From positions 976,235-1,040,234 of the forward strand of contig CBDHDF010000011.1 of the NCBI GenBank assembly GCA_965261545.1: a stretch of DNA of 64,000 nt, read 5' to 3'. This DNA is from Bdellovibrionales bacterium (GTDB lineage: Bacteria > Bdellovibrionota > Bdellovibrionia > Bdellovibrionales > UBA1609). Below the pieces are notes generated by a model. That model had not been told where the DNA came from and did not search any database. It saw only the letters and a program-made list of their open reading frames with translations. How positions within the stretch are numbered: position 1 is the first letter of the stretch; the number at the start of each line of letters is the position of its first letter. This document shows positions 15,337 to 42,734 of this stretch, piece by piece. A program made the position numbers and the translations under genes.

Positions 15337-15638
15337 TAAATGTAGGGGCAGTCATTGGGATTGCCCCAATTTGGTGGGTACTTTTGGAAGGTAAGACTGT
15401 GCCCTCCCATAAATGACTGGTTTTCGCCCTTCCATCGGGGCCAAGAATCATATATATATATTATTTATAACGTAACATATTAGATTGAGTGTGTTAAAAA
15501 TTGGTGAGTTCTAACTGAGTGAAAAGAAATTCAATGAGAGGCACTTTTGAAAAATCTACTTTTACCGCAATCATATTTTCACCTAATCAAGCTGTTTTGA
15601 CGCCGTGAGATAAATTGTGCAACTTAATAGGAGCTACC

Positions 15639-16592
15639 ATGAATCAAACCCAACAAGCTAAAAAAGTTTGGAAAGATATTCCTAACGATATGAGATTAAA
15701 AATTTTAAACAACGTTTGGTGTACTCACTGCTCTAAAGTAATTAGTGTGGGAAACACTACAATGCATATTGCCAGTAGCCATCTCATCATTCGTGGTCAC
15801 TGCACACTGTGTGGCAATCATGTAGCTAGGCTTGTGGAAGAAGTCGGGGCAAATGCAAACTCTACTTCAAAAAGGACAAGTCAATCCACTAACAAAACTA
15901 AAAATGTCAATCCAGATATTTCAAAATTGGTTCAATTTCGTTCTGGAACCAAAGCAGCAATGATGGTTGAAAGTGTAAAGAGTCTAAGAATAAAATCATC
16001 TGATGAGTGGGACTTTAAAGAGACTTTCCCTGATACAGATGTCACCCTTTCCCCACCCTACGATAGTATTTTTAAAACGGGACCAAGACCTTCATGGGAA
16101 ATGCAAAATATTCTACCAGGCTACGACCCAGAGGACTTTGATTGTCCAATAAGTATTGGAATTGACATTCTAGATTCCGGTGATTGGCATGGAGCTATAA
16201 GGCACATGAAAAAACTCTTAAAGCAAGATAATCGGTGTTTAGATGCCTATGCCCACCTTGGAAATTGGTATTTGAAATCTAAAGAGTTGACGGATCTAAA
16301 TACGGCAAAAAATTATTATAAAACTGGAAGTGCCATTGGCTTGAAGTCTATTGGTAAAAAAAGAGCAAACGATGTTTTTCCATGGGGCTTGATAGATAAT
16401 CGTCCGTTTTTTCGCTGTCTTCACGGTTTAGGACTTTGTTTCTACAGACAAGAAAAGCCAATAGAAGCCTTCACTATTTTCTCAAAAATGATCTGGATGA
16501 ACCCCGGAGATAATCAAGGAGTTAGGTTCTTGGTTCATGACCTAGTAAATGGATTGACATATAAAGAGTCTGTAAAAAAGGAAGAAGTTTGA
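15639..16592 (+). CDS. Zn-ribbon (CxxC...CxxC) plus TPR-like C-terminal domain protein (hypothetical)
   Basis: ATG at 15639 follows the aggag RBS. WCTHCSKV...HCTLCGNH forms the Zn ribbon. The C-terminal helical repeats look TPR-like (AYAHLGNWYLKS, GLGLCFYRQEKPIEAFTIFSKMIWMNP). Confidence 0.5.
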   Translation: MNQTQQAKKVWKDIPNDMRLKILNNVWCTHCSKVISVGNTTMHIASSHLIIRGHCTLCGNHVARLVEEVGANANSTSKRTSQSTNKTKNVNPDISKLVQFRSGTKAAMMVESVKSLRIKSSDEWDFKETFPDTDVTLSPPYDSIFKTGPRPSWEMQNILPGYDPEDFDCPISIGIDILDSGDWHGAIRHMKKLLKQDNRCLDAYAHLGNWYLKSKELTDLNTAKNYYKTGSAIGLKSIGKKRANDVFPWGLIDNRPFFRCLHGLGLCFYRQEKPIEAFTIFSKMIWMNPGDNQGVRFLVHDLVNGLTYKESVKKEEV

Positions 16593-27583: not shown

Positions 27584-29729
27584 GTTCCTGTCCAGGGAAG
27601 AAAGTTAAGTAGTTTTAAGTATTTACATGCCTTCCCTTTAGATTTTATGCTTTAAAATGGAGTCCATCAAACATAATCCGTGTAAATTCAGTTACTTACA
27701 TAAAACGGAAAAATAAAATAAGTTCCCCCCCCCTCTCTTGACGAACCTTTCACAGCCCCTCCCTTTCAGTGACTTATGTGGCTATCAACTGGTTACTTGA
27801 TATGAGAGGAAGAGTTGGATCAACCTGTGTTTCCACCGTGGTGATTTCAAACCTCCTTCAGGGAAATAACATTACGTTGCGCATCAACTTCAAAAAATAC
27901 TTGACGTGTTTTTTCAGAGAAATAATTTTTGATATTTTATTCTTCATTTATTTTTTATGTAGGTTTTAGGAGGCGTGGGAACCTCTCTATGAGGTAGAAT
28001 TCTTATCCATGTTCTCCGAGAACCTCTCTGATTTTTTTCTTCTTAAAAGACATCCTTGCTCACTTTTTTCCCTCAAAAAAACGTATGTTAATATAAAAAT
28101 TAAAGAGAAACTTTCACCAAAGGGGGGACTATGCGCCATTTGAAGAAGACACAGTTGGGACTCTTTTCCCAATATCCTAACCACCAACTCAGTACAGAAT
28201 TGCAGCAAATTAATAACATCATTGATCGCCATCCAGAGTTTGCCCATATGGTTCATGAAGACCTTGTTAAAGAAAAGAAAGATTCTGGTGATATTGGTAT
28301 GACATCGGAGCAAGTTCTCAAGGTGGCTATTCTTAAATCCATAAGAGGTCTTTCCTATCGTGCGTTAGCCTTTAATCTTGTCGATTCAGTATCCACCAGA
28401 GCTTTTCTGGGCCTTGAATTGGAAGAAAATTACGCTCACTCCACCTTACAGGACTTGATTGTTCAAATAAGTGAAGAAACTTGGGGAATTATTAGCGCCT
28501 CTTTAGTTTCAGATGCAAGAGATCAAAAGATTGAGCCGTGTAAGAAAATGAGATTGGACAGTACAGTGACGAAATCAAATATTCATCATCCAACGGATGC
28601 ATCGCTTTTATATGACTGCATAAGAGTTACAGAAAGAGAATTTAAAAAAGTTCGTAAAAATGTCATGAAAGATTTTTGGCGACTTATTTCAAGAGAAGAT
28701 CTTAAGAGAGCAAAAACCTTGCTTTACAAAATTAATAATTCCAAAAATGATGCGGAAAGACTACCTTGCTATAAGGAGCTTTTAAAAATCGCTACCAAAT
28801 TGAACAAAGGATTACCTGATACCATCAGAAAGATAAAAAAAGAACAAAAATGTGTGAAGATGAATGCTTTGAAAAAGAGTCTAAAACAGTTAGAAAATGT
28901 TGCCTTCTACCTGGAAAAAATCATCTTTCAAACTCAAAAAAGAGTTATTGAGGGGAAAAAAGTATCTTCTGAAAAAAAGGTCCTATCCATCTTTGAACCG
29001 CATACAGACATTATTGTAAAGGGGCAAAGAGAAGTCGAGTTTGGGCATAAAATCTTTCTGACCTCAGGGCAAAGCAACATGATTTTAGATTGTCAGATCC
29101 CTGATGGCAACCCCGCAGACTCTGATATGTTTTTAAAAGTTATGAATTCAGTGACACAAACCTATGGGGCTTGCCCTGTAAAAGTAAGTGCAGATGGTGG
29201 GTTTGCTTCAAAAGAAAATCTTGAAGAGGCCAAAGAGATGGGGGCTAAAGATGTTTGCTTCCCAGAAAAAAAAGGAATGAAAATATTAAAGATGGTTAAA
29301 AGTGCTTGGGTCTTTAAAAATCTTCTCAATTGGAGAGCCGGAATAGAGGCTGTTATTTCATTCCTTAAGAGATGTTTTGGTATGAGAGTTGCTTACTGGA
29401 AAGGGCATGATGGTTTTAAGAGGTATGTAAAGAATGCCGTTTGTGCCTATAATTTTGTTGTCTTGGCAAGACATGAATTATCAACTGTCACCTAAATTTA
29501 TCCATTAGGAATAACAGCAATGGACCAGGTCGAAGGTGCTAAAATCTTCCAAAGGTAGGGGTGCGTCTTCAAATCGAAAAAACTAGGGCGCAAGTCGCTT
29601 AAAGACCTTTTTCCCCTTAATCTGTAGAGTTTGTGTGGCAAATCTCCAACTCTCACTCCCCCATTGAGGCATTGGGAGGCTCAATGGGGAGTGTCAGAGA
29701 ACAAAAAATGGGCCTTTCTGGACAGAAAC
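27584..29729 (+). mobile_element. IS5/IS1182-like element, copy 1 (2146 bp), intact
   Basis: IRs gttcctgtccag / ctggacagaaac. 6 bp TSD taaata at 27578-27583 and 29730-29735. Confidence 0.85.
28131..29495 (+). CDS. DDE transposase with DUF772-like N-terminal domain (IS5/IS1182/ISNCY-type)
   Basis: 454 aa. MTSEQVLKVAILKSIRGLSYRALAFNL (InsH-N/DUF772-like), LDSTVTKSNIHHPTD, SADGGFAS, and WRAGIEAVISFLKR. Confidence 0.85.
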   Translation: MRHLKKTQLGLFSQYPNHQLSTELQQINNIIDRHPEFAHMVHEDLVKEKKDSGDIGMTSEQVLKVAILKSIRGLSYRALAFNLVDSVSTRAFLGLELEENYAHSTLQDLIVQISEETWGIISASLVSDARDQKIEPCKKMRLDSTVTKSNIHHPTDASLLYDCIRVTEREFKKVRKNVMKDFWRLISREDLKRAKTLLYKINNSKNDAERLPCYKELLKIATKLNKGLPDTIRKIKKEQKCVKMNALKKSLKQLENVAFYLEKIIFQTQKRVIEGKKVSSEKKVLSIFEPHTDIIVKGQREVEFGHKIFLTSGQSNMILDCQIPDGNPADSDMFLKVMNSVTQTYGACPVKVSADGGFASKENLEEAKEMGAKDVCFPEKKGMKILKMVKSAWVFKNLLNWRAGIEAVISFLKRCFGMRVAYWKGHDGFKRYVKNAVCAYNFVVLARHELSTVT

Positions 29730-29779: not shown

Positions 29780-31611
29780 GTGAATAGGAAGGATAAAAGG
29801 TCTTTTTTAGAAATCCGCAAGGCATATCAGTAAAAACTGCAGAGGCCAGCGAAAGCTCCAATAGGATTTTTGGGCTTAACTGGTGGTTTAGGATGGTGTT
29901 GGGCAAAGTTTGAGGAAAATAAGGCCAGAAAAATATGTTGTTTTATGGTGTTGAGACGTACCTCTCCATGAACATAGAGGGAGCAGATGATACAGCCCTA
30001 TGCGTCATTCAGGACAGTCAGAAGTTAAGAAAATGAGTCGAAACTCTCACTTTGTGGTGGGCCTCTGGGTGGCCATAGGCTTGGAGGTTGTGAGGTGATG
30101 CCGAGATGAGTAAGAATTTTTTCAATGACCTGAGGGTCTTCAATGGAAGAAATGACTTTTACTTTTCCACCACACTCATGGCAAGTTTCAACGTCTATGT
30201 CAAAAACCCTCCTGAGCCTTTGAGCCCAGGTCATTCCTGAAGATTTTTTCTTGTTTGGTCTTGGCTCTGAATCTTCCAAATCTAAGGTTTTTTCCCTTGA
30301 GTCTTCACCGATGGAGGCTTCGATTTGGGGTTGCGGGACGATTGAGGATCGATATTTGAAATTGGGCGCGAAAACTCCGTGGAATCTTGTGAGATTCACT
30401 CGTGGTCGAGGGATGAGGGAGGCAAGACGGCTAAGGAAATCAAGGGGGTCCAGAACGATATGAGTGGTTCCATTGTCATAGGCAGTTTTGAGTTTATAGA
30501 CGACTTGGCCCCTGGCATTTAATGAAAGCCTTTCTTCACTGAGGCTGGGTCTTGAAATATACCGGCATACCCTCTCTCGCTTTTTTTTCTCATGGGCTCT
30601 ACATGCGACTCCTCCATGGAGACTAAAGCCAGAATATTTGGCAAGAAATTCACTATTAAAACCTTTACCTCTTGGTGATACAGTGTGAAGAGTCAGTGCT
30701 TTTTTCCCTTTGTGAGGACCGAGAGCTATTCTATAGGTGACTGATGATCCGTGGACTTGGTCCATACTGTCAGAGGCTTCCATAGCCAGATACTCTTGCC
30801 CTGTTTCATCCCTTAGGATAAGTCCCTTTTTTTCTAGGTGCTTGACCACTCTATGAGCTATGCTCACCAAGATGTGATCCATTTCACTTTGGGTGGGTGG
30901 AGTTATGGGGTGAAAATGAGGTTTACCTTCGGGGAATGTGTACACTCCATCCAAATACATCATATGGAAATGAATATTGAGATTGATGCTTCCGCCAAAT
31001 CGTTGAATGAAGGTAACAGAACCCGTCTTGGCTCCTGATTTTTTGGTGAGGCCAGCTCTTTTGATCAGGTAGGTGGAAATGGCTCGATGAACGATGGCTA
31101 AGACCTCTCCCATGACCTTTGGATTTTTGGCAAAGAGGAATCTTATTTGAAAAGGAAAGCTAAGGACCCATTGTCGTAGGGGTTTTTGGGGAAAAACTTC
31201 ATCAACTAAGTGGGCTGCACTTTCAGCCATTCTTCTTGCGCCGCAGCTTGGACAGAAGCCTCGACGCTTGCAGCTAAAGGCCACAAGCCTTTCATGGTGG
31301 CAAGATTCACACTGGGTTCTCAAGAAACCATGGGCAAGAATTCCACACTTGAGAAACTCATCGAATTCTTTTTTAACGAACTGGGGAAGGCCATTTTCAT
31401 GCTCATTTTCTATGTGCCGGTAGAAAGTGAGTAGATTTTCTTGCACCAATTTGTAAAGGAGAGTCTTTTCAGGGCGGTGTCGTTGGTATTTGGGAGCGTT
31501 GTTAAAGATATGGGGATCAACAAGGGCCATGGCCTTTGTTGGAAGGCAAATTCAATGCCAACTGTGGGTGAGCACCAAAAAACTTCTGGGAGAAGCCTAC
31601 TCCATGTATGG
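29780..31611 (-). mobile_element. IS91-family element, copy 1 (ends approximate)
   Basis: All three copies become homologous at gtgaataggaaggataaaagg (29780, 35269, 45032). Copy 3 diverges after ctccatgtatgg (equivalent to 31611). No clear IRs, as expected for IS91. Confidence 0.7.
30025..31530 (-). CDS. IS91-family rolling-circle (HUH-Y2) transposase
   Basis: Zn-binding N-terminus CESCHHERLVAFSCKRRGFCPSCG, HUH-like NIHFHMMYLDGVY, and C-terminal CHECGG. 501 aa. Confidence 0.9.
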   Translation of the reverse strand: MALVDPHIFNNAPKYQRHRPEKTLLYKLVQENLLTFYRHIENEHENGLPQFVKKEFDEFLKCGILAHGFLRTQCESCHHERLVAFSCKRRGFCPSCGARRMAESAAHLVDEVFPQKPLRQWVLSFPFQIRFLFAKNPKVMGEVLAIVHRAISTYLIKRAGLTKKSGAKTGSVTFIQRFGGSINLNIHFHMMYLDGVYTFPEGKPHFHPITPPTQSEMDHILVSIAHRVVKHLEKKGLILRDETGQEYLAMEASDSMDQVHGSSVTYRIALGPHKGKKALTLHTVSPRGKGFNSEFLAKYSGFSLHGGVACRAHEKKKRERVCRYISRPSLSEERLSLNARGQVVYKLKTAYDNGTTHIVLDPLDFLSRLASLIPRPRVNLTRFHGVFAPNFKYRSSIVPQPQIEASIGEDSREKTLDLEDSEPRPNKKKSSGMTWAQRLRRVFDIDVETCHECGGKVKVISSIEDPQVIEKILTHLGITSQPPSLWPPRGPPQSESFDSFS

Positions 31612-31723
31612 GCTCATTTTTTGCTCTATATTCTATTAAGCACCACTCAACCATTCAGTGCCATATGCCAATAACAAGTACGAAATCAAACGCGGCCCTC
31701 AAGCCCCAAGCAAAGGAGTTAAA

Positions 31724-31933
31724 ATGAAAATCTATATCGTAGTACTTTCAACCCTATTACTTTCATGGCCTTCCTTGGCTGGCAATAGCAAGAGCCAAAA
31801 GGCTGAAGATTGTCCATTGCTATCCAGCGCCAACCTTCACGATGACACAAAGGCAACACCAGTTCCCATCCAAGATCAAGATGAGCAAACGACCACTCCC
31901 ACAAGGTCCACGGGGTCCCAGGGCGTCAATTAA
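31724..31933 (+). CDS. Small secreted low-complexity protein (hypothetical)
   Basis: aaaggag RBS, then MKIYIVVLSTLLLSWPSLAG (signal peptide). The 5' half is duplicated at 37211- and the 3' half at 42134-. Confidence 0.3.
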   Translation: MKIYIVVLSTLLLSWPSLAGNSKSQKAEDCPLLSSANLHDDTKATPVPIQDQDEQTTTPTRSTGSQGVN

Positions 31934-32404
31934 ACCCTTGGGAGGTCAACTGCAAAACTGGCTTTCCTTGGTCTTCAAGGTCGGCTTGTGTGATGGAACA
32001 AACCGCTGTTTGTAAGAGCTATGAAAAATATTTGGAAGGGAAGTTCTCAGCGGTCTCAATTTCTCCATTCGCCGTGGGGAAATGTTGGCCATTATTGGAT
32101 CCAGCGGCAGTGGCAAATCCACTTATAAGGACGCTCCTATTCTTGTTCTCAAAGATGTGCGCCATCTTTGAGAACACACAAGGGCAACACGAAGAGCTTA
32201 TGGCCCTTAGTGGAGAGTACGCTGCTCGTTTTTACCAAATGCAATCACGAGGCAATCATAAATCAACTCATAAATCATAGATTCATAAAAAAATTGTGTA
32301 TCAATCAGAAACACCTATGGATTTTTTTTTGTAAATCTTGTTCTTTCAATGACGATAGTGTTATTCTATTAGTATGGATATATTTTTTTGGTTGAGAGGT
32401 GTTA
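31820..32404 (+). repeat. Dispersed repeat block R (copy 1); also at 42134-42702, core also at 34550-34711
   Basis: Near-identical by direct comparison, apart from a 14 bp and a 2 bp indel. It contains the 3' end of the small secreted ORF, an intergenic region, and an internally deleted ABC gene. Confidence 0.8.
32021..32280 (+). pseudogene. MsbA-like ABC exporter remnant (start codon fused to NBD pieces)
   Basis: Walker A RRGEMLAIIGSSGSGKST lies in one frame. The C-terminal ...HEELMALSGEYAARFYQMQ lies in another. The TMD is missing. The same deletion recurs at 42335-42590. Confidence 0.6.
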
Positions 32405-32405
32405 A

Positions 32406-33422
32406 GTGAATCTAATTAATATTAATAATAGAGGTTTTTCTCTGGCTGCCACTCTGGTAGCAACTGTCATTACTGGGATGCTGCTGACAACTCTCATTCA
32501 AATGTTTTCTTTTCAACATACGGAACTCACATCCATCAAAGAACAGCTCGCAGCCGCAAGTAACCACTACTTAATCCTCCAAGCCCTAAAAAATACTGAG
32601 ACCTGTAATTGCCACTTTAAGGATAGCATAAATTCGAGTCCAGAAGATGGTCTCAAGCAGTCCATCGGTCCATTTACCATCGACACGAGGCCTGATAAGA
32701 CGCCCAGTGACATCAACCTCGGGAGCATACGCACAGGTTGTGACTTTACAGGCCCCCATAACATCATTGCTGCAGCGGGCACCGCTGTGTACAACAGGCT
32801 TACAGTTCAGTCTGTGCAGGTCAAGAATATTCGTCCCACAGGGACAACGGGAGAGTTTCAGGGTGATTTGTCGGTCGCATTTGTGGATGGGTCTTACGTC
32901 AGACCGTTCCGTCCGCCGCAAGCGCGGATACTACTTTCGACGAGTCCTGCCGACGCTGCAGCTCCCGGGCGTGCGGATGCTCCGATAGTGAGTTGCGGTC
33001 AACTGGTGGCTGCCGTAAAGGCGGTGCGGATGTATGAGGTGGCGGCCGTAAAGGGCCCGACCGCGACGACGGTCCTGGCCAAGAAGGACATGAAAATAGG
33101 GGATTTCCCTGGATGGCCAATGATAAGGTGCGAGCCAGGGTTCGTTGCACACGTCGTCATGCAAGGCAGAGTTATACGAGCGCAATCTAGCCCCGAGCAC
33201 TCCGGGCTGAGCGTAGATCAGTGGTCATCAGTTGGATGGGTGGATTTAGGACGGGGCGCAACCACGGGCATCAAAGCATGCAAAGTGTGGCGGTCTAGAG
33301 ACGGCACTACCTCGACGTGTGCCTTGACTTATCAGGCGGGAGGTAATGGTACCCCGATCACGGCGTTGCTGCCGCACGACGTGATACGCGGCGTCTGTAT
33401 TCCGGCCGCGACAACGCCTTAA
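32406..33422 (+). CDS. Prepilin-type N-terminal domain protein with a high-GC globular body
   Basis: GTG start after the gagaggtg RBS. NNRG/FSLAATLVATVITGMLLTTLIQMF is a prepilin cleavage-motif-like G-F-S-L plus a hydrophobic helix, but with no Glu at +5. GC jumps from about 37% to about 57-68% after ~32600. Confidence 0.55.
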   Translation: MNLININNRGFSLAATLVATVITGMLLTTLIQMFSFQHTELTSIKEQLAAASNHYLILQALKNTETCNCHFKDSINSSPEDGLKQSIGPFTIDTRPDKTPSDINLGSIRTGCDFTGPHNIIAAAGTAVYNRLTVQSVQVKNIRPTGTTGEFQGDLSVAFVDGSYVRPFRPPQARILLSTSPADAAAPGRADAPIVSCGQLVAAVKAVRMYEVAAVKGPTATTVLAKKDMKIGDFPGWPMIRCEPGFVAHVVMQGRVIRAQSSPEHSGLSVDQWSSVGWVDLGRGATTGIKACKVWRSRDGTTSTCALTYQAGGNGTPITALLPHDVIRGVCIPAATTP

Positions 33423-33559
33423 CGGACGTGTCTGCCTTTGTGGCTCAGCCACACACAGGGGATTCAAATGTTAATGTTAACGAGATCACTTCTCCAATTT
33501 AAATAGCCCTAGTGTAACCCAAGGGGGCATCCCCCTTCCCAAGAGGCCATAGATCGATC

Positions 33560-34420
33560 ATGATAACCTCACTAGATAAGTTAGCAGCGTTCATTTCTAA
33601 TCACAAGTCCAAACACAGTTCTCGCCTTTTGTCTTGGGCCCAACGTAAAGAAGAATTTGTGAGCGAACTCAACCATCAAATTAAAAATCAATCCTATTTT
33701 TTTTCGGAAAGAAAAACCCAATTCATTGGCGGTAAACTAATAACTTATTACAAAGAATGGGAAGATCGATTTGTAGATTTTTGCTTGTCATCTTATTTGA
33801 GAGATATGGTAGCAACAAAGAATTGGGTGGCCCACAACTATGTGTCTACTGCAGGCAAAGGGCGGAACTATGCGATCCGCCAACTGTACCACCAAAGGAC
33901 AAATTACTCCTACGTTTTTAAGACAGATGTTAAATCTTATTTCGCTAGTGTGGACACCGTAATCTTGGAAAAACTTATTTTCAAGATAGGAGTGCCGCGT
34001 TGCTTGCATTCTCTCATTTGGCAAGACCTTTTGTTGCCAGTAGAAAAAAATACGAAATCTGTGAGAGAAAAGAGTATTTTTCAAGGAAGCTCAATGTCAA
34101 CATTTTACGCTTGGTTGTATCTTAAAGATTTAGATGATTTTTTTAATCAACAAACCCATATTTTTTATCAGAGGTATGTCGATGATATCATCATTCTAAC
34201 ACACACAAAAAGTGCGCTTGATGAGGGAAAAGACACTCTCTATTCGATTTTGAGAAGAAGGAAGTTAAGAACACGCTACCCTAAGACCTTTGAGGGGCGT
34301 ACCTCAGCACCTATAGCATACCTTGGATATAGATTACATAAAACCCAAATTAAGCAAAGTTATGAGTCGAAAAGAAAAAATAAAAAATTCATAATGCCTC
34401 AGGGTTTTGCTAACATATAA
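33560..34420 (+). CDS. Stand-alone reverse transcriptase (RT domain only, YVDD)
   Basis: 286 aa. WEDRFVDFCL (motif 1-2), STAGKGRNYA, KTDVKSYFASVD (motif 3), FQGSSMSTFYAWLYLKDLDDFF (motif 4), YQRYVDDIIIL (motif 5), and IAYLGYRL (motif 7). No maturase/En domain. Confidence 0.85.
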   Translation: MITSLDKLAAFISNHKSKHSSRLLSWAQRKEEFVSELNHQIKNQSYFFSERKTQFIGGKLITYYKEWEDRFVDFCLSSYLRDMVATKNWVAHNYVSTAGKGRNYAIRQLYHQRTNYSYVFKTDVKSYFASVDTVILEKLIFKIGVPRCLHSLIWQDLLLPVEKNTKSVREKSIFQGSSMSTFYAWLYLKDLDDFFNQQTHIFYQRYVDDIIILTHTKSALDEGKDTLYSILRRRKLRTRYPKTFEGRTSAPIAYLGYRLHKTQIKQSYESKRKNKKFIMPQGFANI

Positions 34421-34700
34421 ATATCTTTGATGCGATATATGTGTTCGTAGATCAAAACCGAAAACCGACCACAAACACTTTAAGGCAAGGGGTAGATATC
34501 CATTTGATTTTGAGCCGCCCATTGAGCTAAAGCACTAGAAAAATCAGTTCCAAGATCAAGATGAGCAAACGACCACTCCCACAAGGTCCACGGGGTCCCA
34601 GGGCGTCAATTAAACCCTTGGGAGGTCAACTGCAACACTGGCTTTCCTTGGTCTTCAAGGTCGGCTTGTGTGATGGAACAAACCGCTGTATGTAAAAGCT

Positions 34701-35087
34701 ATGAAAAATATGTGGGCTCGCATATGGCCCGAGTTACAGCCCTTTAAGCTTAAGCTTTTTTTTGTCCTCCTTGTTGGAGTGCTTGTCAGCGGACTTAAAT
34801 CAACAACAGGCCCCCTTCTTGGAAGTCTCACAGATGCTTGGGAAAAGGGAAACCAAGAATTGGCATGGCAAATCCCTGTGGCCCTGGCCTGTGGCTGGCT
34901 CATGATAGGTGCCGATCGTTTTATCAATATGTTCTGGACCAAATATATTGTCGACACTGTCATCATCAACCTCCGTCGCAAATTAATCGATAAATATTTA
35001 CGCTTGAGCTTCTCCTATCGAGAAAGTCTTTCCAAAGGATCGGGAGGACTTATTAGCCACCTTATCAACGACCTACAAATCGTTTAA
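34701..35087 (+). pseudogene. ABC exporter N-terminal transmembrane-domain fragment
   Basis: MKNMWARIWPELQPFKLKLFFVLLVGVLVSG...IINLRRKLIDKYLRLSFSY...GGLISHLINDLQ matches the first ~125 aa of MsbA-type TMDs. It is truncated. Confidence 0.6.
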
Positions 35088-35173
35088 AAAGTACGCGGGA
35101 GAGTTGTAGGCTACAACTGTAAATGAAAACATACATTGACTTTACTCCAAAGCGAGATGCATAATTTTTACTT

Positions 35174-35268
35174 ATGAAAAAATCCCTCCCTCCCCTTTGC
35201 TTAACCCTTGATAACACTTTTAAAGCATTTTTTAAGCATGACCAGGACTTGCTCAAGCCTTTGTTGGT
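35174..35268 (+). pseudogene. 5' fragment of an Rpn-family gene, cut by IS91 copy 2
   Basis: Near-identical to 40176-40270 (MKKSLPPLCLTLDNTFKAFFKHDQDLLKPLL) until the IS91 end at 35269. Confidence 0.7.
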
Positions 35269-37098
35269 GAATAGGAAGGATAAAAGGTCTTTTTTAGAAA
35301 TCCGCAAGGCATATCAGTAAAAACTGCAGAGGCCAGCGAAAGCTCCAATAGGATTTTTGGGCTTAACTGGTGGTTTAGGATGGTGTTGGGCAAAGTTTGA
35401 GGAAAATAAGGCCAGAAAAATATGTTGTTTTATGGTGTTGAGACGTACCTCTCCATGAACATAGAGGGAGCAGATGATACAGCCCTATGCGTCATTCAGG
35501 ACAGTCAGAAGTTAAGAAAATGAGTCGAAACTCTCACTTTGTGGTGGGCCTCTGGGTGGCCATAGGCTTGGAGGTTGTGAGGTGATGCCGAGATGAGTAA
35601 GAATTTTTTCAATGACCTGAGGGTCTTCAATGGAAGAAATGACTTTTACTTTTCCACCACACTCATGGCAAGTTTCAACGTCTATGTCAAAAACCCTCCT
35701 GAGCCTTTGAGCCCAGGTCATTCCTGAAGATTTTTTCTTGTTTGGTCTTGGCTCTGAATCTTCCAAATCTAAGGTTTTTTCCCTTGAGTCTTCACCGATG
35801 GAGGCTTCGATTTGGGGTTGCGGGACGATTGAGGATCGATATTTGAAATTGGGCGCGAAAACTCCGTGGAATCTTGTGAGATTCACTCGTGGTCGAGGGA
35901 TGAGGGAGGCAAGACGGCTAAGGAAATCAAGGGGGTCCAGAACGATATGAGTGGTTCCATTGTCATAGGCAGTTTTGAGTTTATAGACGACTTGGCCCCT
36001 GGCATTTAATGAAAGCCTTTCTTCACTGAGGCTGGGTCTTGAAATATACCGGCATACCCTCTCTCGCTTTTTTTTCTCATGGGCTCTACATGCGACTCCT
36101 CCATGGAGACTAAAGCCAGAATATTTGGCAAGAAATTCACTATTAAAACCTTTACCTCTTGGTGATACAGTGTGAAGAGTCAGTGCTTTTTTCCCTTTGT
36201 GAGGACCGAGAGCTATTCTATAGGTGACTGATGATCCGTGGACTTGGTCCATACTGTCAGAGGCTTCCATAGCCAGATACTCTTGCCCTGTTTCATCCCT
36301 TAGGATAAGTCCCTTTTTTTCTAGGTGCTTGACCACTCTATGAGCTATGCTCACCAAGATGTGATCCATTTCACTTTGGGTGGGTGGAGTTATGGGGTGA
36401 AAATGAGGTTTACCTTCGAGGAATGTGTACACTCCATCCAAATACATCATATGGAAATGAATATTGAGATTGATGCTTCCGCCAAAGCGTTGAATGAAGG
36501 TAACAGAACCCGCCTTGGCTCCTGATTTTTTGGTGAGACCAGCTTTTTTGATCAGGTAGGTGGAAATGGCTCGATGAACGATGGCTAAGACCTCTCCCAT
36601 GACCTTTGGATTTTTGGCAAAGAGGAATCTTATTTGAAAAGGAAAGCTAAGGACCCATTGTCGTAGGGGTTTTTGGGGAAAAACTTCATCAACTAAGTGA
36701 GCTGCACTTTCAGCCATTCTTCTTGCGCCGCAGCTTGGGCAGAAGCCTCGACGCTTGCAGCTAAAGGCCACAAGCCTTTCATGGTGGCAAGATTCACACT
36801 GGGTTCTCAAGAAACCATGGGCAAGAATTCCACACTTGAGAAACTCATCGAATTCTTTTTTAACGAACTGGGGAAGGCCATTTTCATGCTCATTTTCTAT
36901 GTGCCGGTAGAAAGTGAGTAGATTTTCTTGCACCAATTTGTAAAGGAGAGTCTTTTCAGGGCGGTGTCGTTGGTATTTGGGAGCGTTGTTAAAGATATGG
37001 GGATCAACAAGGGCCATGGCCTTTGTTGGAAGGCAAATTCAATGCCAACTGTGGGTGAGCACCAAAAAACTTCTGGGAGAAGCCTACTCCATGTATGG
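35269..37098 (-). mobile_element. IS91-family element, copy 2
   Basis: Colinear with copy 1. The transposase differs at a few residues (R157K, T168A, P199L). Confidence 0.7.
35512..37017 (-). CDS. IS91-family transposase (copy 2)
   Basis: 501 aa, near-identical to 30025-31530. Confidence 0.9.
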   Translation of the reverse strand: MALVDPHIFNNAPKYQRHRPEKTLLYKLVQENLLTFYRHIENEHENGLPQFVKKEFDEFLKCGILAHGFLRTQCESCHHERLVAFSCKRRGFCPSCGARRMAESAAHLVDEVFPQKPLRQWVLSFPFQIRFLFAKNPKVMGEVLAIVHRAISTYLIKKAGLTKKSGAKAGSVTFIQRFGGSINLNIHFHMMYLDGVYTFLEGKPHFHPITPPTQSEMDHILVSIAHRVVKHLEKKGLILRDETGQEYLAMEASDSMDQVHGSSVTYRIALGPHKGKKALTLHTVSPRGKGFNSEFLAKYSGFSLHGGVACRAHEKKKRERVCRYISRPSLSEERLSLNARGQVVYKLKTAYDNGTTHIVLDPLDFLSRLASLIPRPRVNLTRFHGVFAPNFKYRSSIVPQPQIEASIGEDSREKTLDLEDSEPRPNKKKSSGMTWAQRLRRVFDIDVETCHECGGKVKVISSIEDPQVIEKILTHLGITSQPPSLWPPRGPPQSESFDSFS

Positions 37099-37922
37099 GC
37101 TCATTTTTTGCTCTATATTCTATTAAGCACCACTCAACCATTCAGTGCCATATGCCAATAACAAGTACGAAATCAAACGCGGCCCTCAAGCCCCAAGCAA
37201 AGGAGTTAAAATGAAAATCTATATCGTAGTACTTTCAACCCTATTACTTTCATGGCCTTCCTTGGCTGGCAATAGCAAGAGCCAAAAGGCTGAAGATTGT
37301 CCATTGCTATCCAGCGCCAACCTTCAGCGCCTCGGACGTGAACTGCGTCTCTCCTATGCCAACCAATTTATGGCTCAAGACCGAGAGACCGTCAATGAGG
37401 CTTATGCCGGTGATATTGTGGGCATTATTGACACAGGCTATTTTCAAATTGGTGATACGATCACTTCGGGACACTCCCTTTCTTTTGGTGAAATGCCTCG
37501 GTTTTCACCAGAGGTTTTTGCCAAACTTCATATTAAGGACCCTTTAAAAAGAAAACAATTGGAGAAGGCTTCCCTGCAATTGGCTGAAGAGGGAATGATC
37601 CAACTCTTTTATGATTCCGCTTTGGGACGTCAGGACCCTATCCTAGGAGTGGTTGGTGAGCTTCAGCTGGATGTTCTTTTGCACCGGCTCAATGGTGAGT
37701 ACAAACTCAATGTCAAATTGGAGAGACAGGTCTACTCTGTGGCCAGATGGGTGACTTGCAAAGAAAGTCACCAGGAAACTCACAAAGAGAATCACAAGAA
37801 TCACAAGAAAAATAATCAAAGAGTGATCTCCTCTATTCAAGGAGGAACTCGCCTTCACCATGATATTCACCAAAACCCTGTGGTTCTCCTTGAAAGAGAG
37901 TGGGATTTAAAATGGTTATCTA

Positions 37923-40068
37923 GTTTCTGTCCAGAAAGGCCCATTTTTTGTTCTCTGACACTCCCCATTGAGCCTCCCAATGCCTCAATGGGGGAGTGAG
38001 AGTTGGAGATTTGCCACACAAACTCTACAGATTAAGGGGAAAAAGGTCTTTAAGCGACTTGCGCCCTAGTTTTTTCGATTTGAAGACGCACCCCTACCTT
38101 TGGAAGATTTTAGCACCTTCGACCTGGTCCATTGCTGTTATTCCTAATGGATAAATTTAGGTGACAGTTGATAATTCATGTCTTGCCAAGACAACAAAAT
38201 TATAGGCACAAACGGCATTCTTTACATACCTCTTAAAACCATCATGCCCTTTCCAGTAAGCAACTCTCATACCAAAACATCTCTTAAGGAATGAAATAAC
38301 AGCCTCTATTCCGGCTCTCCAATTGAGAAGATTTTTAAAGACCCAAGCACTTTTAACCATCTTTAATATTTTCATTCCTTTTTTTTCTGGGAAGCAAACA
38401 TCTTTAGCCCCATCTCTTTGGCCTCTTCAAGATTTTCTTTTGAAGCAAACCCACCATCTGCACTTACTTTTACAGGGCAAGCCCCATAGGTTTGTGTCAC
38501 TGAATTCATAACTTTTAAAAACATATCAGAGTCTGCGGGGTTGCCATCAGGGATCTGACAATCTAAAATCATGTTGCTTTGCCCTGAGGTCAGAAAGATT
38601 TTATGCCCAAACTCGACTTCTCTTTGCCCCTTTACAATAATGTCTGTATGCGGTTCAAAGATGGATAGGACCTTTTTTTCAGAAGATACTTTTTTCCCCT
38701 CAATAACTCTTTTTTGAGTTTGAAAGATGATTTTTTCCAGGTAGAAGGCAACATTTTCTAACTGTTTTAGACTCTTTTTCAAAGCATTCATCTTCACACA
38801 TTTTTGTTCTTTTTTTATCTTTCTGATGGTATCAGGTAATCCTTTGTTCAATTTGGTAGCGATTTTTAAAAGCTCCTTATAGCAAGGTAGTCTTTCCGCA
38901 TCATTTTTGGAATTATTAATTTTGTAAAGAAAGGTTTTTGCTCTCTTAAGATCTTCTCTTGAAATAAGTCGCCAAAAATCTTTCATGACATTTTTACGAA
39001 CTTTTTTAAATTCTCTTTCTGTAACTCTTATGCAGTCATATAAAAGCGATGCATCCGTTGGATGATGAATATTTGATTTCGTCACTGTACTGTCCACTCT
39101 CATTTTCTTACACGGCTCAATCTTTTGATCTCTTGCATCTGAAACTAAAGAGGCGCTAATAATTCCCCAAGTTTCTTCACTTATTTGAACAATCAAGTCC
39201 TGTAAGGTGGAGTGAGCGTAATTTTCTTCCAATTCAAGGCCCAGAAAAGCTCTGGTGGATACTGAATCGACAAGATTAAAGGCTAACGCACGATAGGAAA
39301 GACCTCTTATGGATTTAAGAATAGCCACCTTGAGAACTTGCTCCGATGTCATACCAATATCACCAGAATCTTTCTTTTCTTTAACAAGGTCTTCATGAAC
39401 CATATGGGCAAACTCTGGATGGCGATCAATGATGTTATTAATTTGCTGCAATTCTGTACTGAGTTGGTGGTTAGGATATTGGGAAAAGAGTCCCAACTGT
39501 GTCTTCTTCAAATGGCGCATAGTCCCCCCTTTGGTGAAAGTTTCTCTTTAATTTTTATATTAACATACGTTTTTTTGAGGGAAAAAAGTGAGCAAGGATG
39601 TCTTTTAAGAAGAAAAAAATCAGAGAGGTTCTCGGAGAACATGGATAAGAATTCTACCTCATAGAGAGGTTCCCACGCCTCCTAAAACCTACATAAAAAA
39701 TAAATGAAGAATAAAATATCAAAAATTATTTCTCTGAAAAAACACGTCAAGTATTTTTTGAAGTTGATGCGCAACGTAATGTTATTTCCCTGAAGGAGGT
39801 TTGAAATCACCACGGTGGAAACACAGGTTGATCCAACTCTTCCTCTCATATCAAGTAACCAGTTGATAGCCACATAAGTCACTGAAAGGGAGGGGCTGTG
39901 AAAGGTTCGTCAAGAGAGGGGGGGGGGAACTTATTTTATTTTTCCGTTTTATGTAAGTAACTGAATTTACACGGATTATGTTTGATGGACTCCATTTTAA
40001 AGCATAAAATCTAAAGGGAAGGCATGTAAATACTTAAAACTACTTAACTTTCTTCCCTGGACAGGAAC
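37923..40068 (-). mobile_element. IS5/IS1182-like element, copy 2 (2146 bp)
   Basis: Same IRs as copy 1. 6 bp TSD tatcta at 37917-37922 and 40069-40074. Removing the IS plus one TSD restores the prfC frame. Confidence 0.9.
38157..39520 (-). pseudogene. Frameshifted transposase of IS5-like copy 2
   Basis: The G5 run of copy 1 (gatgggggct) is G4 here (cccc at 38408-38411). This splits the ORF into 382 aa + 72 aa. Confidence 0.85.
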
Positions 40069-41235: not shown

Positions 41236-41467
41236 AAATTCCCATTTTTACCTTTGCCAACAAGATGGATCGTGAGGGCCGTGAACCCATAGAAATCATT
41301 GATGGATGTGGAAAACACACTCGGAATGAGATGCTCTATCCTGTGACGGGGCCCATTGGCATTGGTGATACGATCACTTCGAGACACTCCCTTTACTTTT
41401 GGTGAAATGCCTCGGTTTTCACCAGAGGTTTTTGCCAAACTTCAAAACCTGTGGTTCTCCTTGAAAA
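41236..41467 (+). pseudogene. prfC: Mosaic prfC remnant (middle pieces with internal deletions)
   Basis: IPIFTFANKMDREGREPIEIID, then PIGIGDTITS...MPRFSPEVFAKL joined directly to NPVVLLE. These pieces lie hundreds of bp apart in the 37327-37922 copy. Confidence 0.6.
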
Positions 41468-41971
41468 AATGAAGGTAACAGAACCCGTCTTGGCTCCTGA
41501 TTTTTTGGTGAGGCCAGCTCTTTTGATCAGGTAGGTGGAAATGGCTCGATGAACGATGGCTAAGACCTCTCCCATGACCTTTGGATTTTTGGCAAAGAGG
41601 AATCTTATTTGAAAAGGAAAGCTAAGGACCCATTGTCGTAGGGGTTTTTGGGGAAAAACTTCATCAACTAAGTGGGCTGCACTTTCAGCCATTCTTCTTG
41701 CGCCGCAGCTTGGACAGAAGCCTCGACGCTTGCAGCTAAAGGCCACAAGCCTTTCATGGTGGCAAGATTCACACTGGGTTCTCAAGAAACCATGGGCAAG
41801 AATTCCACACTTGAGAAACTCATCGAATTCTTTTTTAACGAACTGGGGAAGGCCATTTTCATGCTCATTTTCTATGTGCCGGTAGAAAGTGAGTAGATTT
41901 TCTTGCACCAATTTGTAAAGGAGAGTCTTTTCAGGGCGGTGTCGTTGGTATTTGGGAGCGTTGTTAAAGAT
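41468..41971 (-). mobile_element. Internal fragment of an IS91-family element (copy 4)
   Basis: Identical to copy 1 from aatgaaggtaacag to gttgttaaagata. Both ends join unrelated DNA. Confidence 0.8.
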
Positions 41972-42133
41972 AGCCTCCAATGAGTTGCAAGCCACTATGG
42001 GCTACTTAGAACCTTATCTTTTCGATTCCATGTGGCGTGGGCGTATCAACTCCATTGCCGCCAAAGAACTACGGGATCAAGATGAACAGGTAGAGAGGTA
42101 TGCAATAAGCCAAACACTCGACCTCATCCTTGG

Positions 42134-42702
42134 CTATCCAGCGCCAACCTTCACGATGACACAAAGGCAACACCAGTTCCCATCCAAGATCAAGATGAGC
42201 AAACGACCACTCCCACAAGGTCCACGGGGTCCCAGGGCGTCAATTAAACCCTTGGGAGGTCAACTGCAAAACTGGCTTTCCTTGGTCTTCAAGGTCGGCT
42301 TGTGTGATGGAACAAACCGCTGTTTGTAAGAGCTATGAAAAATATTTGGAAGGGAAGTTCTCAGCGGTCTCAATTTCTCCATTCGCCGTGGGGAAATGTT
42401 GGCCATTATTGGATCCAGCGGCAGTGGCAAATCCACTTATAAGGACGCTCCTATTCTTGTTCTCAAAGATGTGCGCCATCTTTGAGAACACAAGGGCAAC
42501 ACGAAGAGCTTATGGCCCTTAGTGGAGAGTACGCTGCTCGTTTTTACCAAATGCAATCACGAGGCAATCATAAATCAACTCATAAATCATAGATTCATAA
42601 AAAAATTGTGTATCAATCAGAAACACCTATGGATTTTTTTTTGTAAATCTTGTTCTTTCAATGACGATAGTGTTATTCTATTAGTATGGATGAGAGGTGT
42701 TA
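42134..42702 (+). repeat. Dispersed repeat block R (copy 3) including the same internally deleted ABC remnant
   Basis: Colinear with 31820-32404. It lacks the prepilin/RT module that follows copy 1. Confidence 0.8.
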
Positions 42703-42734
42703 GTCCATTGTAAGCAATGACCAATGCAATTAAA

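What the first reader, a model, noticed from the sequence alone, without database searches (positions are those of the whole stretch)
32394..34549. Stand-alone reverse transcriptase beside a chimeric prepilin-like gene: candidate atypical DGR or other RT-associated system
A 2.1 kb module (prepilin-like ORF 32406-33422, 137 bp spacer, RT 33560-34420) is present after repeat block R at 31820-32404. It is absent after the paralogous block at 42134-42702, so it behaves as an insertion.

**Points for a DGR-like reading**
- The RT is only an RT domain (YVDD). It has GKG in STAGKGRNYA.
- It has a motif-4 region, GSSMSTFYAWLYLKDLDDF, that aligns well with the DGR pattern G-x3-S-Q-x-F-A-x2-Y-L-x2-L-D-x-F, but with T instead of Q and a preceding Q as in group II/retron RTs.
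- It ends in a YLGYRL motif rather than the retron VTG.
- The layout fits: a surface-type target gene, then RT, with two hairpins in the spacer (33439-33453 tgtggctcagccaca; 33521-33537 aagggggcatccccctt).

**Points against**
- I could not find any template/variable repeat pair.
- I could not find an avd gene.

The module could therefore be a decayed DGR, a DGR whose TR was lost at the 34545 rearrangement junction, or a different kind of RT system.
Basis: partly seen in the sequence, partly recalled or inferred. Interest (0 to 1): 0.8.

Follow-up and report, generated by a model that had tools for sequence, protein, structure and literature searches.

The report
UG4-type reverse transcriptase beside variable pilin
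This is not a diversity-generating retroelement but a divergent member of the little-understood UG4 reverse-transcriptase family, sitting just after a pilus-subunit-like gene whose tail end differs wildly between close relatives, which fits this family's unexplained habit of sitting beside surface-adhesin genes.

Summary
The described features are all present at the stated coordinates: a 338-aa prepilin-like ORF, a 137-nt spacer and an intact 286-aa RT-only protein.

**Not a DGR.**
- No template/variable repeat exists in the 64-kb window or in seven related loci.
- There is no avd gene.
- The RT's best profile is UG4, a class 2 UG/Abi RT. Its nearest full-length relatives are firm UG4.

**What it is.** UG4 is a known family of unknown function, reported next to fimbrial genes. 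This is a divergent subclade in which the partner is a type-IV-pilin-like gene.
- The pairing recurs in three RT lineages that are about 50% identical.
- All eight subclade loci carry a conserved stem-loop (AAGG…CCTT-CCC-AAGAGG) 12-32 nt upstream of the RT start.

**Hypervariable block.** In two independent pairs of near-identical loci, the pilin 3' end is unalignable (0.5-1 kb). Identity returns at or 5 nt before this stem-loop. Salmonella UG4 plasmids show the same pattern at the RT-proximal end of an adhesin gene.

**Open question.** Whether the RT causes this variation or merely sits beside fast-evolving adhesin genes is unresolved.

**"Insertion" inference.** Not supported. The second repeat copy keeps the pilin leader and is cut off by an IS element.

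The parts
32292..32405 (+). Conserved leader upstream of the pilin-like gene. It marks the left edge of the module as defined by homology with locus L002. It contains a sigma-54-like TGG-N9-TGT at 32318-32332.
   Evidence: Homology with L002 starts at window 32292, at 78-90% identity. The same leader is retained in the truncated repeat copy at 42600-42712. The sigma-54-like spacing was found by regex. Promoter function is not tested.
32406..33422 (+). Type-IV-prepilin-like ORF of 338 aa. It has an N-terminal RG|FSLAA motif with a hydrophobic helix, then a beta-rich region.
   Evidence: The ORF is listed. N_methyl scores 15.6 bits, which is sub-threshold. ComGE minor pilin scores E = 0.0015. 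Partner genes in L007/L003 have a canonical G|FTLLE. The low-confidence AF2 model shows helix 9-62 followed by strands.
33006..33515 (+). Hypervariable block: the last ~136 pilin codons plus ~93 nt after the stop codon. It is GC-rich (59%, GC3 64%).
   Evidence: Identity to L002 is 32-52% here against 90-100% on both sides. The left edge is graded (32826-33005 at 77-82%) and full conservation returns at 33516. The protein of the sister genome (P0009) diverges at the same residue, ~204-208.
33439..33453 (+). Lineage-specific palindrome TGTGGCTCAGCCACA in the spacer.
   Evidence: Read directly from the sequence. It is only partly conserved in L002 and does not keep its pairing there.
33521..33549 (+). 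Conserved stem-loop AAGGGGG-CAT-CCCCCTT, followed by CCC and an AAGAGGCC Shine-Dalgarno-like motif. It ends 19 nt upstream of the RT start.
   Evidence: The same element lies 12-32 nt upstream of the RT start in all 8 subclade loci. The base AAGG/CCTT is invariant and the upper stems are different but complementary. It is the only match to the pattern in the window.
33560..34420 (+). Stand-alone reverse transcriptase of 286 aa, from a divergent UG4 subclade. All catalytic motifs are intact.
   Evidence: RVT_1 scores 1.3e-16. PADLOC RT_UG4 scores 3e-32 and 110 bits. The nearest non-subclade relatives score 180-225 bits on UG4. Comparison with L002 gives 19 synonymous against 5 nonsynonymous codon changes. 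Invariant motifs are shown.
31840..32291 (+). Context: repeat block R1, an internally deleted remnant of an ABC-exporter gene. It lies immediately upstream of the module.
   Evidence: Walker A GSSGSGKST and a C-terminal HEELMALSGEYAARFYQMQ are seen in shifted frames. An IS91-like end lies to its left.
34549..35087 (+). Context: third partial copy of R, followed by the 5' end of an ABC-exporter gene (34701-35087), which is then interrupted by an IS.
   Evidence: From. Homology of the module with L002 stops exactly at the RT stop codon, 34420.
42127..42712 (+). Context: repeat copy R2. It keeps the pilin leader to within 2-3 nt of the start codon and is then truncated.
   Evidence: Shown in the alignment. 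A multicopy IS256-like element starts at 42733, 99.7% identical to other copies in the window.

Best explanation
**What it is.** The 2.1-kb module (32292-34420) is a UG4-type retro-element gene pair. A type-IV-pilin-like surface-protein gene is followed, in the same direction, by a small RT-only enzyme of the UG4 group (class 2 of the UG/Abi reverse transcriptases). It is the type-IV-pilin counterpart of the known arrangement in which a UG4 RT directly follows the last subunit gene of a chaperone-usher fimbrial operon.

**Shown:**
- the family placement of the RT;
- the conservation of the pairing;
- a conserved stem-loop plus Shine-Dalgarno-like motif just upstream of the RT start;
- an allelic hypervariable block covering the pilin C-terminus, where full identity returns at or 5 nt before that stem-loop;
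- purifying selection on the RT.

**Inferred (favoured, not shown):**
- Pilin and RT are co-transcribed.
- The RT recognises the stem-loop on its own mRNA. The analogy is a group II intron RT binding the DIVa hairpin that carries its own ribosome-binding site.
- The RT's activity is tied to the adjacent surface-protein gene. The most likely link is cDNA of the RNA immediately 5' of the stem-loop, which promotes replacement or diversification of the pilin 3' end.

An equally simple reading is that the RT serves another pilus-linked role, and that the pilin tail varies only through ordinary diversifying selection and recombination.
For: **Family placement**
- RT_UG4 is the best of 53 PADLOC hits at 110 bits, ahead of UG17 at 92 and UG26 at 89.
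- In an exhaustive search of 1.8 billion representatives, only 7 proteins score E <= 1e-30.
- The next full-length relatives (36-41% identity) score 180-225 bits on UG4 against 123-151 on UG17.

**Literature**
- UG4 is RT-only, shows no defence-island enrichment and is associated with fimbrial genes (PMC9226505).
- A fimbrial domain lies in the neighbourhood in 66% of cases (PMC8934634).

**Pairing**
- Pilin-like genes lie directly upstream of the RT in L002, L001 and L003/L007.
- Canonical UG4 in Aeromonas and E. coli plasmids has the last minor fimbrial subunit followed by the RT in the same direction. In Aeromonas the two overlap by 8 nt.

**Stem-loop**
- It is present in 8 of 8 subclade loci, with complementary but different upper stems.

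**Hypervariable block**
- It is seen in window vs L002 and in L007 vs L003. The RT-side edge lies at the stem-loop (L007/L003) or 5 nt before it (window/L002).
- The sister-genome protein diverges at the same codon.
- The same architecture occurs in Salmonella UG4 plasmids. RT is 95% identical and the adhesin body 96.6%, but the RT-proximal ~1 kb of the adhesin is unalignable.
- In chaperone-usher loci the chaperone and RT align at ~70%, while the subunit genes between them do not align.

**RT integrity**
- It is intact and under purifying selection, with 19 synonymous against 5 nonsynonymous codon changes.
Against: **Family placement is not clear-cut**
- The UG4 margin over UG17/UG26 is modest.
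- One subclade member (P0014) scores slightly higher on UG26.
- The subclade lacks the ~30-aa C-terminal tail of canonical UG4.

**The pairing is not universal**
- Two subclade loci (L005, L010) have no pilin gene upstream.

**Nothing links the RT causally to the variation**
- The variable block is protein-coding in every case, including a second small secreted ORF in L003/L007.
- The graded edge carries mostly synonymous changes. This fits old alleles shuffled by recombination.
- The blocks show no excess RNA structure, with z-scores of 0.42, -0.58 and -0.71.
- From established knowledge, pilin and intimin C-termini are hypervariable in species without any RT.

**Possible decay**
- In the sister genome the RT is annotated only as a 108-aa fragment, so the module may be decaying in this IS-ridden lineage.

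**Data quality**
- Most related loci come from 3-4x long-read metagenome assemblies with frameshifts.
Confidence: 0.6

Rival explanations
1. The module is an atypical or decayed diversity-generating retroelement. The RT would copy a template repeat with adenine-specific errors into the pilin C-terminus.
For: - The layout resembles a DGR: a surface-type gene with a variable 3' end, a GC-rich hairpin after it, then an RT.
- Some broader UG4 RTs lie next to proteins with an Lcl_C (DUF1566) domain, a common DGR target fold. L017 scores 42.8 bits and L024 scores 119 bits.
Against: - No TR/VR pair exists in the 64-kb window, by blastn at word size 7 or by an A- or T-tolerant scan.
- None exists within 5-6 kb in related loci.
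- There is no avd gene. The spacer is 137 nt and has no ORF.
- The RT's best profiles are UG4/UG17/UG26, and motif 4 is QGSSxS.
- Alleles differ by indels and unalignable sequence. Adenine mutagenesis cannot produce that.
- In all five subclade loci whose RT 3' flank is readable (L001, L002, L003, L005, L007) there is no room for a TR and no repeat, so loss at the 34545 junction is not the explanation.
Confidence: 0.03
2. The RT is a UG/Abi-type anti-phage or addiction enzyme. It is linked to pilus and adhesin genes because these are phage receptors or lie in mobile variable regions. It plays no part in pilin variation. The pilin tail varies by ordinary diversifying selection and homologous recombination between alleles.
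For: - Most UG/Abi groups are defence systems (PMC9226505).
- The window is rich in IS elements and carries defence-like genes: a DruA-domain protein at 47280-49625 and an AAA_15/AAA_21 ATPase at 53268-54617.
- The graded edge of the block is dominated by synonymous differences.
- The variable block is coding throughout.
- The same RT (98% identity) sits beside unrelated secreted-protein genes in L024 and L026.
Against: - UG4 specifically shows no defence-island enrichment (PMC9226505).
- The tight, often overlapping adjacency to the 3' end of surface-protein genes spans six protein classes and both gene orientations. Chance co-location explains this poorly.
- No effector gene accompanies the RT.
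Confidence: 0.3
3. The RT is a group II intron-derived or retron RT. The upstream stem-loop would be part of an intron RNA or an msr/msd RNA.
For: - There are weak hits to group II RT/maturase (68.5 bits) and retron St85 RT (35 bits).
- GsI-IIC RT is the second-best solved structure by profile.
- A structured element lies just upstream of the RT, as in retrons.
Against: - Both NCBIfam hits are far below their cut-offs of 300 and 235 bits.
- There is no maturase, endonuclease or extra domain in the 286-aa protein.
- No group II intron or any other Rfam family matches 31500-35500 at E <= 1.
- Retron RT models rank far below UG4 for the nearest relatives.
- No flanking a1/a2-type inverted repeats were seen around the element.
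Confidence: 0.03
4. The module is a decaying relic with no present function in a degenerating, IS-ridden genome.
For: - The surrounding region is scrambled by IS91-, IS256-, IS4- and IS66-type elements and pseudogenes.
- The sister genome has only a 108-aa RT fragment and a shorter, 261-aa pilin.
- The pilin lacks the conserved Glu5.
Against: - In this window both ORFs are full length.
- All RT catalytic motifs are intact.
- RT divergence from L002 is mainly synonymous.
- The 135-codon GC-rich tail stays open.
Confidence: 0.1

Closest known systems
UG4 reverse transcriptases (UG/Abi class 2; Simon & Zimmerly unknown group 4; Mestre et al. 2022, PMC9226505; myRT, PMC8934634)
   Same: - It is an RT-only protein of about 300 aa.
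- UG4 is its best profile match, and its nearest relatives are UG4.
- It is not in a recognisable defence system.
- It lies immediately next to a gene for a surface-filament subunit. The gene order is the same (last subunit, then RT) as in chaperone-usher UG4 loci.
   Different: - The partner is a type-IV-pilin-like protein (class III signal peptide type), not a FimA/FimC/FimD chaperone-usher set.
- The RT is about 30 aa shorter at the C-terminus and only 29-32% identical to canonical members.
- The subclade has its own conserved 5' stem-loop, absent from the Salmonella UG4 loci checked.
- It is on a ~1-Mb contig rather than a plasmid.
Diversity-generating retroelements (Bordetella phage BPP-1 type)
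   Same: - An RT sits next to the variable C-terminal end of a surface or ligand-binding protein.
- There is a GC-rich hairpin at the RT-side edge of the variable region.
   Different: - There is no template repeat and no Avd.
- The RT belongs to another clade.
- The variation is not adenine-specific and includes indels.
Allelic or cassette variation of type IV pilins without RT (P. aeruginosa pilA allele groups, Neisseria pilE/pilS, R64 PilV shufflon)
   Same: There is a conserved N-terminal helix and a hypervariable C-terminal domain with discrete boundaries between conserved flanks.
   Different: - Those systems use homologous recombination with silent copies, or a tyrosine recombinase (Rci).
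- No silent cassette or recombinase is seen here, and the conserved downstream flank is an RT gene.
- This comparison rests on established knowledge, not on a test run here.
ncRNA-dependent class 2 UG/Abi systems (DRT2/UG2, DRT9/UG28, UG27)
   Same: They have a small RT with a conserved non-coding element just 5' of the RT ORF.
   Different: - Here the conserved element is a single ~20-nt stem-loop, not a long structured ncRNA.
- Upstream sequence shows no excess folding.
- No defence association is known for UG4.

Membership tests
DGR | Template repeat / variable repeat pair with adenine-specific mismatches | tested here: not met
   Lenient blastn and A/T-tolerant diagonal scans of the whole 64-kb window found only A-rich chance matches. 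No pair was found in seven related loci. The rest of the genome could not be searched.
DGR | RT of the DGR clade (motif 4 [LIV]GxxxSQ) | tested here: not met
   The best profiles are UG4, UG17 and UG26. Motif 4 reads IFQGSSMST. None of the libraries used holds a dedicated DGR RT model, so this rests on the positive UG4 placement and on the motif.
DGR | Accessory gene (avd or HRDC) between target and RT | tested here: not met
   The spacer is 137 nt with no ORF. No such gene lies in the neighbourhood of related loci.
DGR | Target protein with a C-type-lectin or Ig-like variable domain | tested here: inconclusive
   The AF2 model has mean pLDDT 34, so no fold search was attempted. There is no Pfam or PDB sequence match for the C-terminal part.
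UG4 (UG/Abi class 2) | RT domain best matched by the UG4 profile / groups with UG4 | tested here: met
   UG4 scores 110 bits and E = 3e-32 over profile positions 27-271 of 307. The nearest relatives outside the subclade score 180-225 bits on UG4. The margin over UG17/UG26 is modest and no tree was built.
UG4 (UG/Abi class 2) | RT-only protein without fused domains | tested here: met
   The protein is 286 aa and RVT_1 is the only significant Pfam domain.
UG4 (UG/Abi class 2) | Neighbouring fimbrial genes | tested here: met
   This is met in variant form. The partner is a type-IV-pilin-like gene, not a chaperone-usher gene, and it recurs in L001, L002, L003 and L007. Two subclade loci lack it.
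Type IV pilin / pseudopilin | Class III signal peptide: G|F(T/S)L(I/L)E followed by a hydrophobic helix | tested here: inconclusive
   The window protein has RG|FSLAATLVATVITGML. N_methyl scores 15.6 bits against a cut-off of 21.2, and Glu5 is replaced by Ala. The L003 partner reaches the cut-off at 21.6 bits and L007 has G|FTLLE. No prepilin peptidase or pilus assembly gene lies in the window.
Retron | Retron-clade RT plus msr/msd RNA | tested here: not met
   retron_St85_RT scores 35 bits against a cut-off of 235. There is no Rfam match.
Group II intron | RT/maturase with intron RNA domains | tested here: not met
   group_II_RT_mat scores 68.5 bits against a cut-off of 300. There is no Intron_gpII or any other Rfam hit at E <= 1 in 31500-35500. 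There is no maturase domain.

The most novel reading that the evidence does not exclude
UG4 reverse transcriptases, including this one, may be template-repeat-free diversifiers or replacers of the C-terminal, ligand-binding ends of surface adhesins. The RT would bind a cis element at the RT-side edge of the variable block (here the conserved stem-loop). It would make cDNA of the adjoining RNA, and that cDNA would be used to rewrite or swap the 3' end of the neighbouring pilin, fimbrial or autotransporter gene.

This would be a second, mechanistically distinct class of RT-driven protein diversification besides DGRs.
Probability: 0.15. Interest if true: 0.9.

Novelty: new variant of a known kind. 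Interest (0 to 1): 0.55.

Why it matters
UG4 is one of the few bacterial RT groups with neither a known function nor a predicted defence role. Its only clue so far has been a link to chaperone-usher fimbrial genes.

This locus, and the loci reached from it, widen that clue.
- The RT sits at the 3' end of genes for at least six kinds of surface protein: chaperone-usher subunits, inverse autotransporters, Lcl_C proteins, a collagen-repeat protein, a PEP-CTERM protein, and here type-IV-pilin-like proteins.
- In the three sets of closely related loci I could compare, plus one comparison at ~70% flank identity, the RT-proximal part of the neighbour is the most variable stretch.
- The subclade adds a conserved stem-loop that gives a concrete candidate for an RNA recognition site.

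Together these turn "function unknown" into a testable question. Does the RT drive adhesin variation, or does it only travel with fast-evolving adhesin genes?

Tried and rejected
**1. DGR.** A TR search by blastn and by adenine- and thymine-tolerant scans on both strands gave nothing.

**2. Known RNA families.** Rfam at E <= 1 over 31500-35500, and at gathering thresholds over the whole window, found only a tRNA-Gly at 62521-62596.

**3. A large structured ncRNA in the variable block.** Folding z-scores were 0.42, -0.58 and -0.71. Only the 138-nt window spacer is modestly stable, at z = -2.8.

**4. Fold of the pilin C-terminal domain.** AF2 with a 3-sequence alignment gave pLDDT 34, so no fold search was run.

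**5. Mutation spectrum as a sign of an error-prone polymerase.**
- Transition/transversion ratios are lower in the pilin part (0.72-0.76) than in the flanks (1.3-2.0).
- Significance is weak (p = 0.17 and 0.02), and saturation in older alleles explains it equally well.

**6. DNA of the sister genome's locus.** P0009 and P0012 lie on a 1,107,388-bp contig, but exact look-ups found no record.

**7. Wider sequence searches.**
- The GTDB representative-genome scan found only a distant Gracilibacteria RT.
- JGI metagenomes hold no close subclade member.
- The PLSDB plasmid collection has no DNA match. The phage collection was not searched.

**8. Intrinsic terminator or sigma-70 promoter for the spacer hairpins.** Neither was flagged. 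Site counts equal the shuffle expectation.

**9. Organism identity.** It could not be established with the tools available.


Full report
**1. The observation**

The window holds ORF 32406-33422 (+, GTG start, 338 aa), a 137-nt spacer and ORF 33560-34420 (+, 286 aa).
- The second ORF is a reverse transcriptase: Pfam RVT_1 E = 1.3e-16, above the cut-off.
- The first ORF begins MNLININNRG|FSLAATLVATVITGML. The Pfam N-terminal methylation motif scores 15.6 bits against a cut-off of 21.2, and the usual Glu at +5 is Ala. Taken alone, "prepilin-like" is weak.
- The gene is compositionally two-part. The last 135 codons are 59% GC (GC3 64%), against 37% for the RT and 40% for the window.

**2. Which kind of RT**

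- Against PADLOC the RT matches RT_UG4 best (E = 3e-32, 110 bits, profile positions 27-271 of 307). UG17 (92 bits) and UG26 (89 bits) follow.
- NCBIfam gives only far sub-threshold hits to group II RT/maturase, Drt3a and retron RT.
- An exhaustive HMMER search of 1.8 billion cluster representatives found just seven proteins at E <= 1e-30, so this is a rare subclade.
- The next full-length relatives (P0008, P0016, P0017, P0020, P0022; 36-41% identity) are unambiguous UG4, at 180-225 bits against 123-151 for UG17.
- One subclade member scores marginally higher on UG26, and the subclade lacks about 30 C-terminal residues of canonical UG4. I therefore call it a divergent UG4 subclade rather than a core member.
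- All catalytic motifs are conserved: GKGR, FKTDxKSYF, QGSSxS, YxDD, KT and LG.
- Against the 94%-identical copy in L002, the compared part of the RT (33813-34420) differs at 19 synonymous and 5 nonsynonymous codons. The gene is under purifying selection.

**3. What is known about UG4**

- Mestre et al. 2022 (PMC9226505) place UG4 in class 2 of the UG/Abi RTs, which are RT-only.
- They report a subgroup "widely associated" with predicted fimbrial proteins. They find no defence-island enrichment and note a plasmid bias.
- myRT (PMC8934634) finds fimbrial domains (FimA, FimC, FimD) in the neighbourhood of 66% of UG4 RTs.
- No paper in the searchable library assigns a function.

**4. The pilin-RT pairing is conserved**

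Contigs carrying subclade RTs were fetched.
- L002 (RT 96% identical at the protein level; 94% over the alignable DNA) has the same pilin gene.
- L001 (RT 52%) has a 38%-identical pilin-like gene starting RG|FTLTS.
- L007 and L003 (RT about 50%) have a 539-aa gene starting with a canonical KKAQEG|FTLLEITVAMG.
- The N_methyl motif is detected at the same position in all five proteins. L003 reaches the Pfam cut-off.
- L005 and L010 have no pilin gene upstream, so the pairing is frequent but not universal.
- Comparison with L002 defines the module as 32292-34420. Homology begins 114 nt upstream of the pilin start and stops exactly at the RT stop codon. The flanking genes differ in every genome.

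**5. A conserved stem-loop before the RT**

All eight subclade loci carry AAGG-(variable stem and loop)-CCTT-CCC-(A/G)AAGAGGC, or in L010 the variant TAGGG...CCCTA-CCC-ATGAGGC. It lies 12-32 nt upstream of the RT start.
- In the window it is at 33521-33549.
- The upper stems differ but stay complementary: GGG/CCC, AU/AU, GAGAU/AUCUC and GAC/GUC.
- It has no U-tract and was not flagged as a terminator.
- It is absent from the canonical UG4 loci checked.
- I infer that the element is the RT's regulatory or recognition site next to its ribosome-binding site. The analogy is the DIVa hairpin of group II introns. This is inference only.

**6. A hypervariable block**

*Window vs L002.*
- Identity is 90-100% across the leader, the first ~140 pilin codons and the RT.
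- It falls to 77-82% over 32826-33005, and to 32-52% (unalignable, with indels) over 33006-33515.
- It returns to 92% at 33516, which is 5 nt before the stem-loop.

*Sister genome.* Its protein, P0009, is about 99% identical up to residue ~204. It then differs at 17 of the next 47 positions.

*L007 vs L003, from one sample.*
- Flanks are 92-100% identical and the left edge is graded (88, 80, 68%).
- A ~1-kb block follows at 27-60% identity.
- Conservation resumes at the first base of the stem-loop.

*What the block looks like.*
- It is coding throughout. In L007/L003 it also holds a second small secreted ORF.
- The graded edge carries mostly synonymous changes: 24 of 38 differences fall at third positions.
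- The blocks fold no better than shuffled sequence.
- These features are what long-lived alleles under diversifying selection with recombination would give. They do not require the RT.

**7. Not a DGR**

- No repeat of the pilin tail exists anywhere in the window, by lenient blastn or by scans tolerating any mismatch at template A or T.
- None exists in related loci.
- There is no avd gene.
- The RT is not of the DGR type.
- Indels and unalignable alleles cannot arise by adenine mutagenesis.
- The five subclade loci with a readable RT 3' flank (L001, L002, L003, L005, L007) have no space for a TR and no repeat. Loss of a TR at the 34545 junction is therefore not the explanation.
- The fold of the C-terminal domain could not be assessed (AF2 pLDDT 34).

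**8. The "insertion" claim**

- Block R1 (31840-32291) is an internally deleted ABC-exporter gene.
- Its copy R2 (42127-42712) continues through the whole pilin leader to within 2-3 nt of the GTG start. It is followed 20 nt later by a multicopy IS256-like element.
- R2 is thus a truncated duplicate, not an empty target site.
- The third partial copy (34549-) is the start of another ABC-exporter copy that is itself cut by an IS.
- The module lies in IS-scrambled DNA and shows no insertion signature of its own.

**9. Wider UG4 context (followed only in part)**

*Salmonella IncF plasmids.*
- A core UG4 RT (449 bits) is convergent with, and overlaps, the 3' end of a 5.5-kb inverse-autotransporter adhesin gene.
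- Between L009 and L032 the RT is 95% identical and the adhesin body 96.6%. The RT-proximal ~1 kb of the adhesin is unalignable.
- The same holds for two paralogous copies within L009.

*Chaperone-usher loci.*
- The last minor subunit gene runs straight into the RT.
- Across plasmids, the chaperone and RT align at about 70% while the subunit genes between them do not align.

*Metagenomic UG4 loci.*
- The convergent neighbours are secreted proteins with Lcl_C domains, collagen repeats or a PEP-CTERM anchor.
- Two RTs that are 98% identical have unrelated neighbours.

UG4 is therefore linked to the 3' ends of surface-protein genes more broadly than the "fimbrial" label suggests.

**10. Verdict**

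- The identity is well supported: a divergent UG4 RT paired with a type-IV-pilin-like gene.
- The mechanism is not. I favour a cis-acting role of the RT on the adjacent surface-protein gene, but give direct RT-driven diversification only about 15%.
- The main rival, at about 30%, is that the RT has another pilus- or plasmid-linked role and the variation is ordinary.

Caveats:
- Most comparison loci are 3-4x long-read assemblies with frameshifts.
- The organism is unidentified.
- The rest of the genome was not available.

Noticed in passing
L008, L009, L031, L032 (Salmonella IncF plasmids): A core UG4 RT is convergent with, and overlaps, the 3' end of a ~5.5-kb inverse-autotransporter adhesin gene. 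The gene sits in a conserved operon with CaiF/GrlA and LuxR-type regulators and a tyrosine DNA invertase. The RT-proximal ~1-3 kb of the adhesin is unalignable between plasmids whose RT and adhesin body are 95-97% identical. L009 carries a second adhesin copy with a partial RT 3' half beside it.
   Followed up: partly
L011, L013, L014, L017, L021, L024, L026 (metagenomic UG4 loci): The genes convergent with UG4 RTs encode signal-peptide proteins. Two carry Lcl_C/DUF1566 above the Pfam cut-off (L017, L024), and L013 has a sub-threshold Lcl_C hit (18.6 bits against 34.9). L026 has collagen repeats and L011 a PEP-CTERM anchor. L024 and L026 share a 98%-identical RT but have unrelated neighbours. 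No TR/VR pair is present in any of them.
   Followed up: partly
L007 4402-4818; L003 5177-5542: A second small secreted, Cys-containing ORF lies between the pilin gene and the RT in this lineage. It is as variable as the pilin tail. It was not called in L007.
   Followed up: partly
window 32318-32332 and 6759-8309: TGGATTTTTTTTTGT in the pilin leader has the GG-N10-G spacing of a sigma-54 promoter, but with TTGT instead of TTGC at -12. The GG and TG are kept in L002. A sigma-54 activator with a receiver domain lies at 6759-8309, and a histidine kinase at 12388-13776.
   Followed up: no
window 31840-32291, 34549-35087, 42127-42712: There are three partial copies of an ABC-exporter gene and its upstream region. 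One is internally deleted, one is cut by an IS91-like element, and one is cut by an IS256-like element. A prfC-like gene is fused to an IS end at 37145-37999.
   Followed up: partly
window 2823-4328, 30025-31530, 35512-37017, 41393-41995; 19630-20832, 43347-44549, 50410-51612, 55908-57110; 28131-29495, 38372-39520: IS density is very high. There are three full copies and one truncated copy of a 501-aa IS91-like transposase gene, four copies of a 400-aa IS256-like one, and two copies of a 454-aa gene with an unconfirmed IS4-like family assignment. IS66- and Mu-type genes are also present. This suggests a host-restricted or degenerating genome.
   Followed up: no
window 47280-49625 and 53268-54617: A 781-aa ORF combines a Druantia DruA domain (PF14236, 1.4e-35) with a DDE transposase domain. 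An AAA_15/AAA_21 (AbiEii/OLD-like) ATPase lies nearby.
   Followed up: no
window 9380-12409, 8330-9241, 14287-15336, 15615-16592: Four sizeable ORFs (1009, 303, 349 and 325 aa) lie in the block that runs from the sigma-54 activator past the histidine kinase. None has a Pfam match at E <= 1e-5.
   Followed up: no
sister genome (proteins P0009, P0012; contig of 1,107,388 bp): The closest relative's RT is annotated only as a 108-aa C-terminal fragment. Its pilin stops at 261 aa. The module may be inactivated there.
   Followed up: partly
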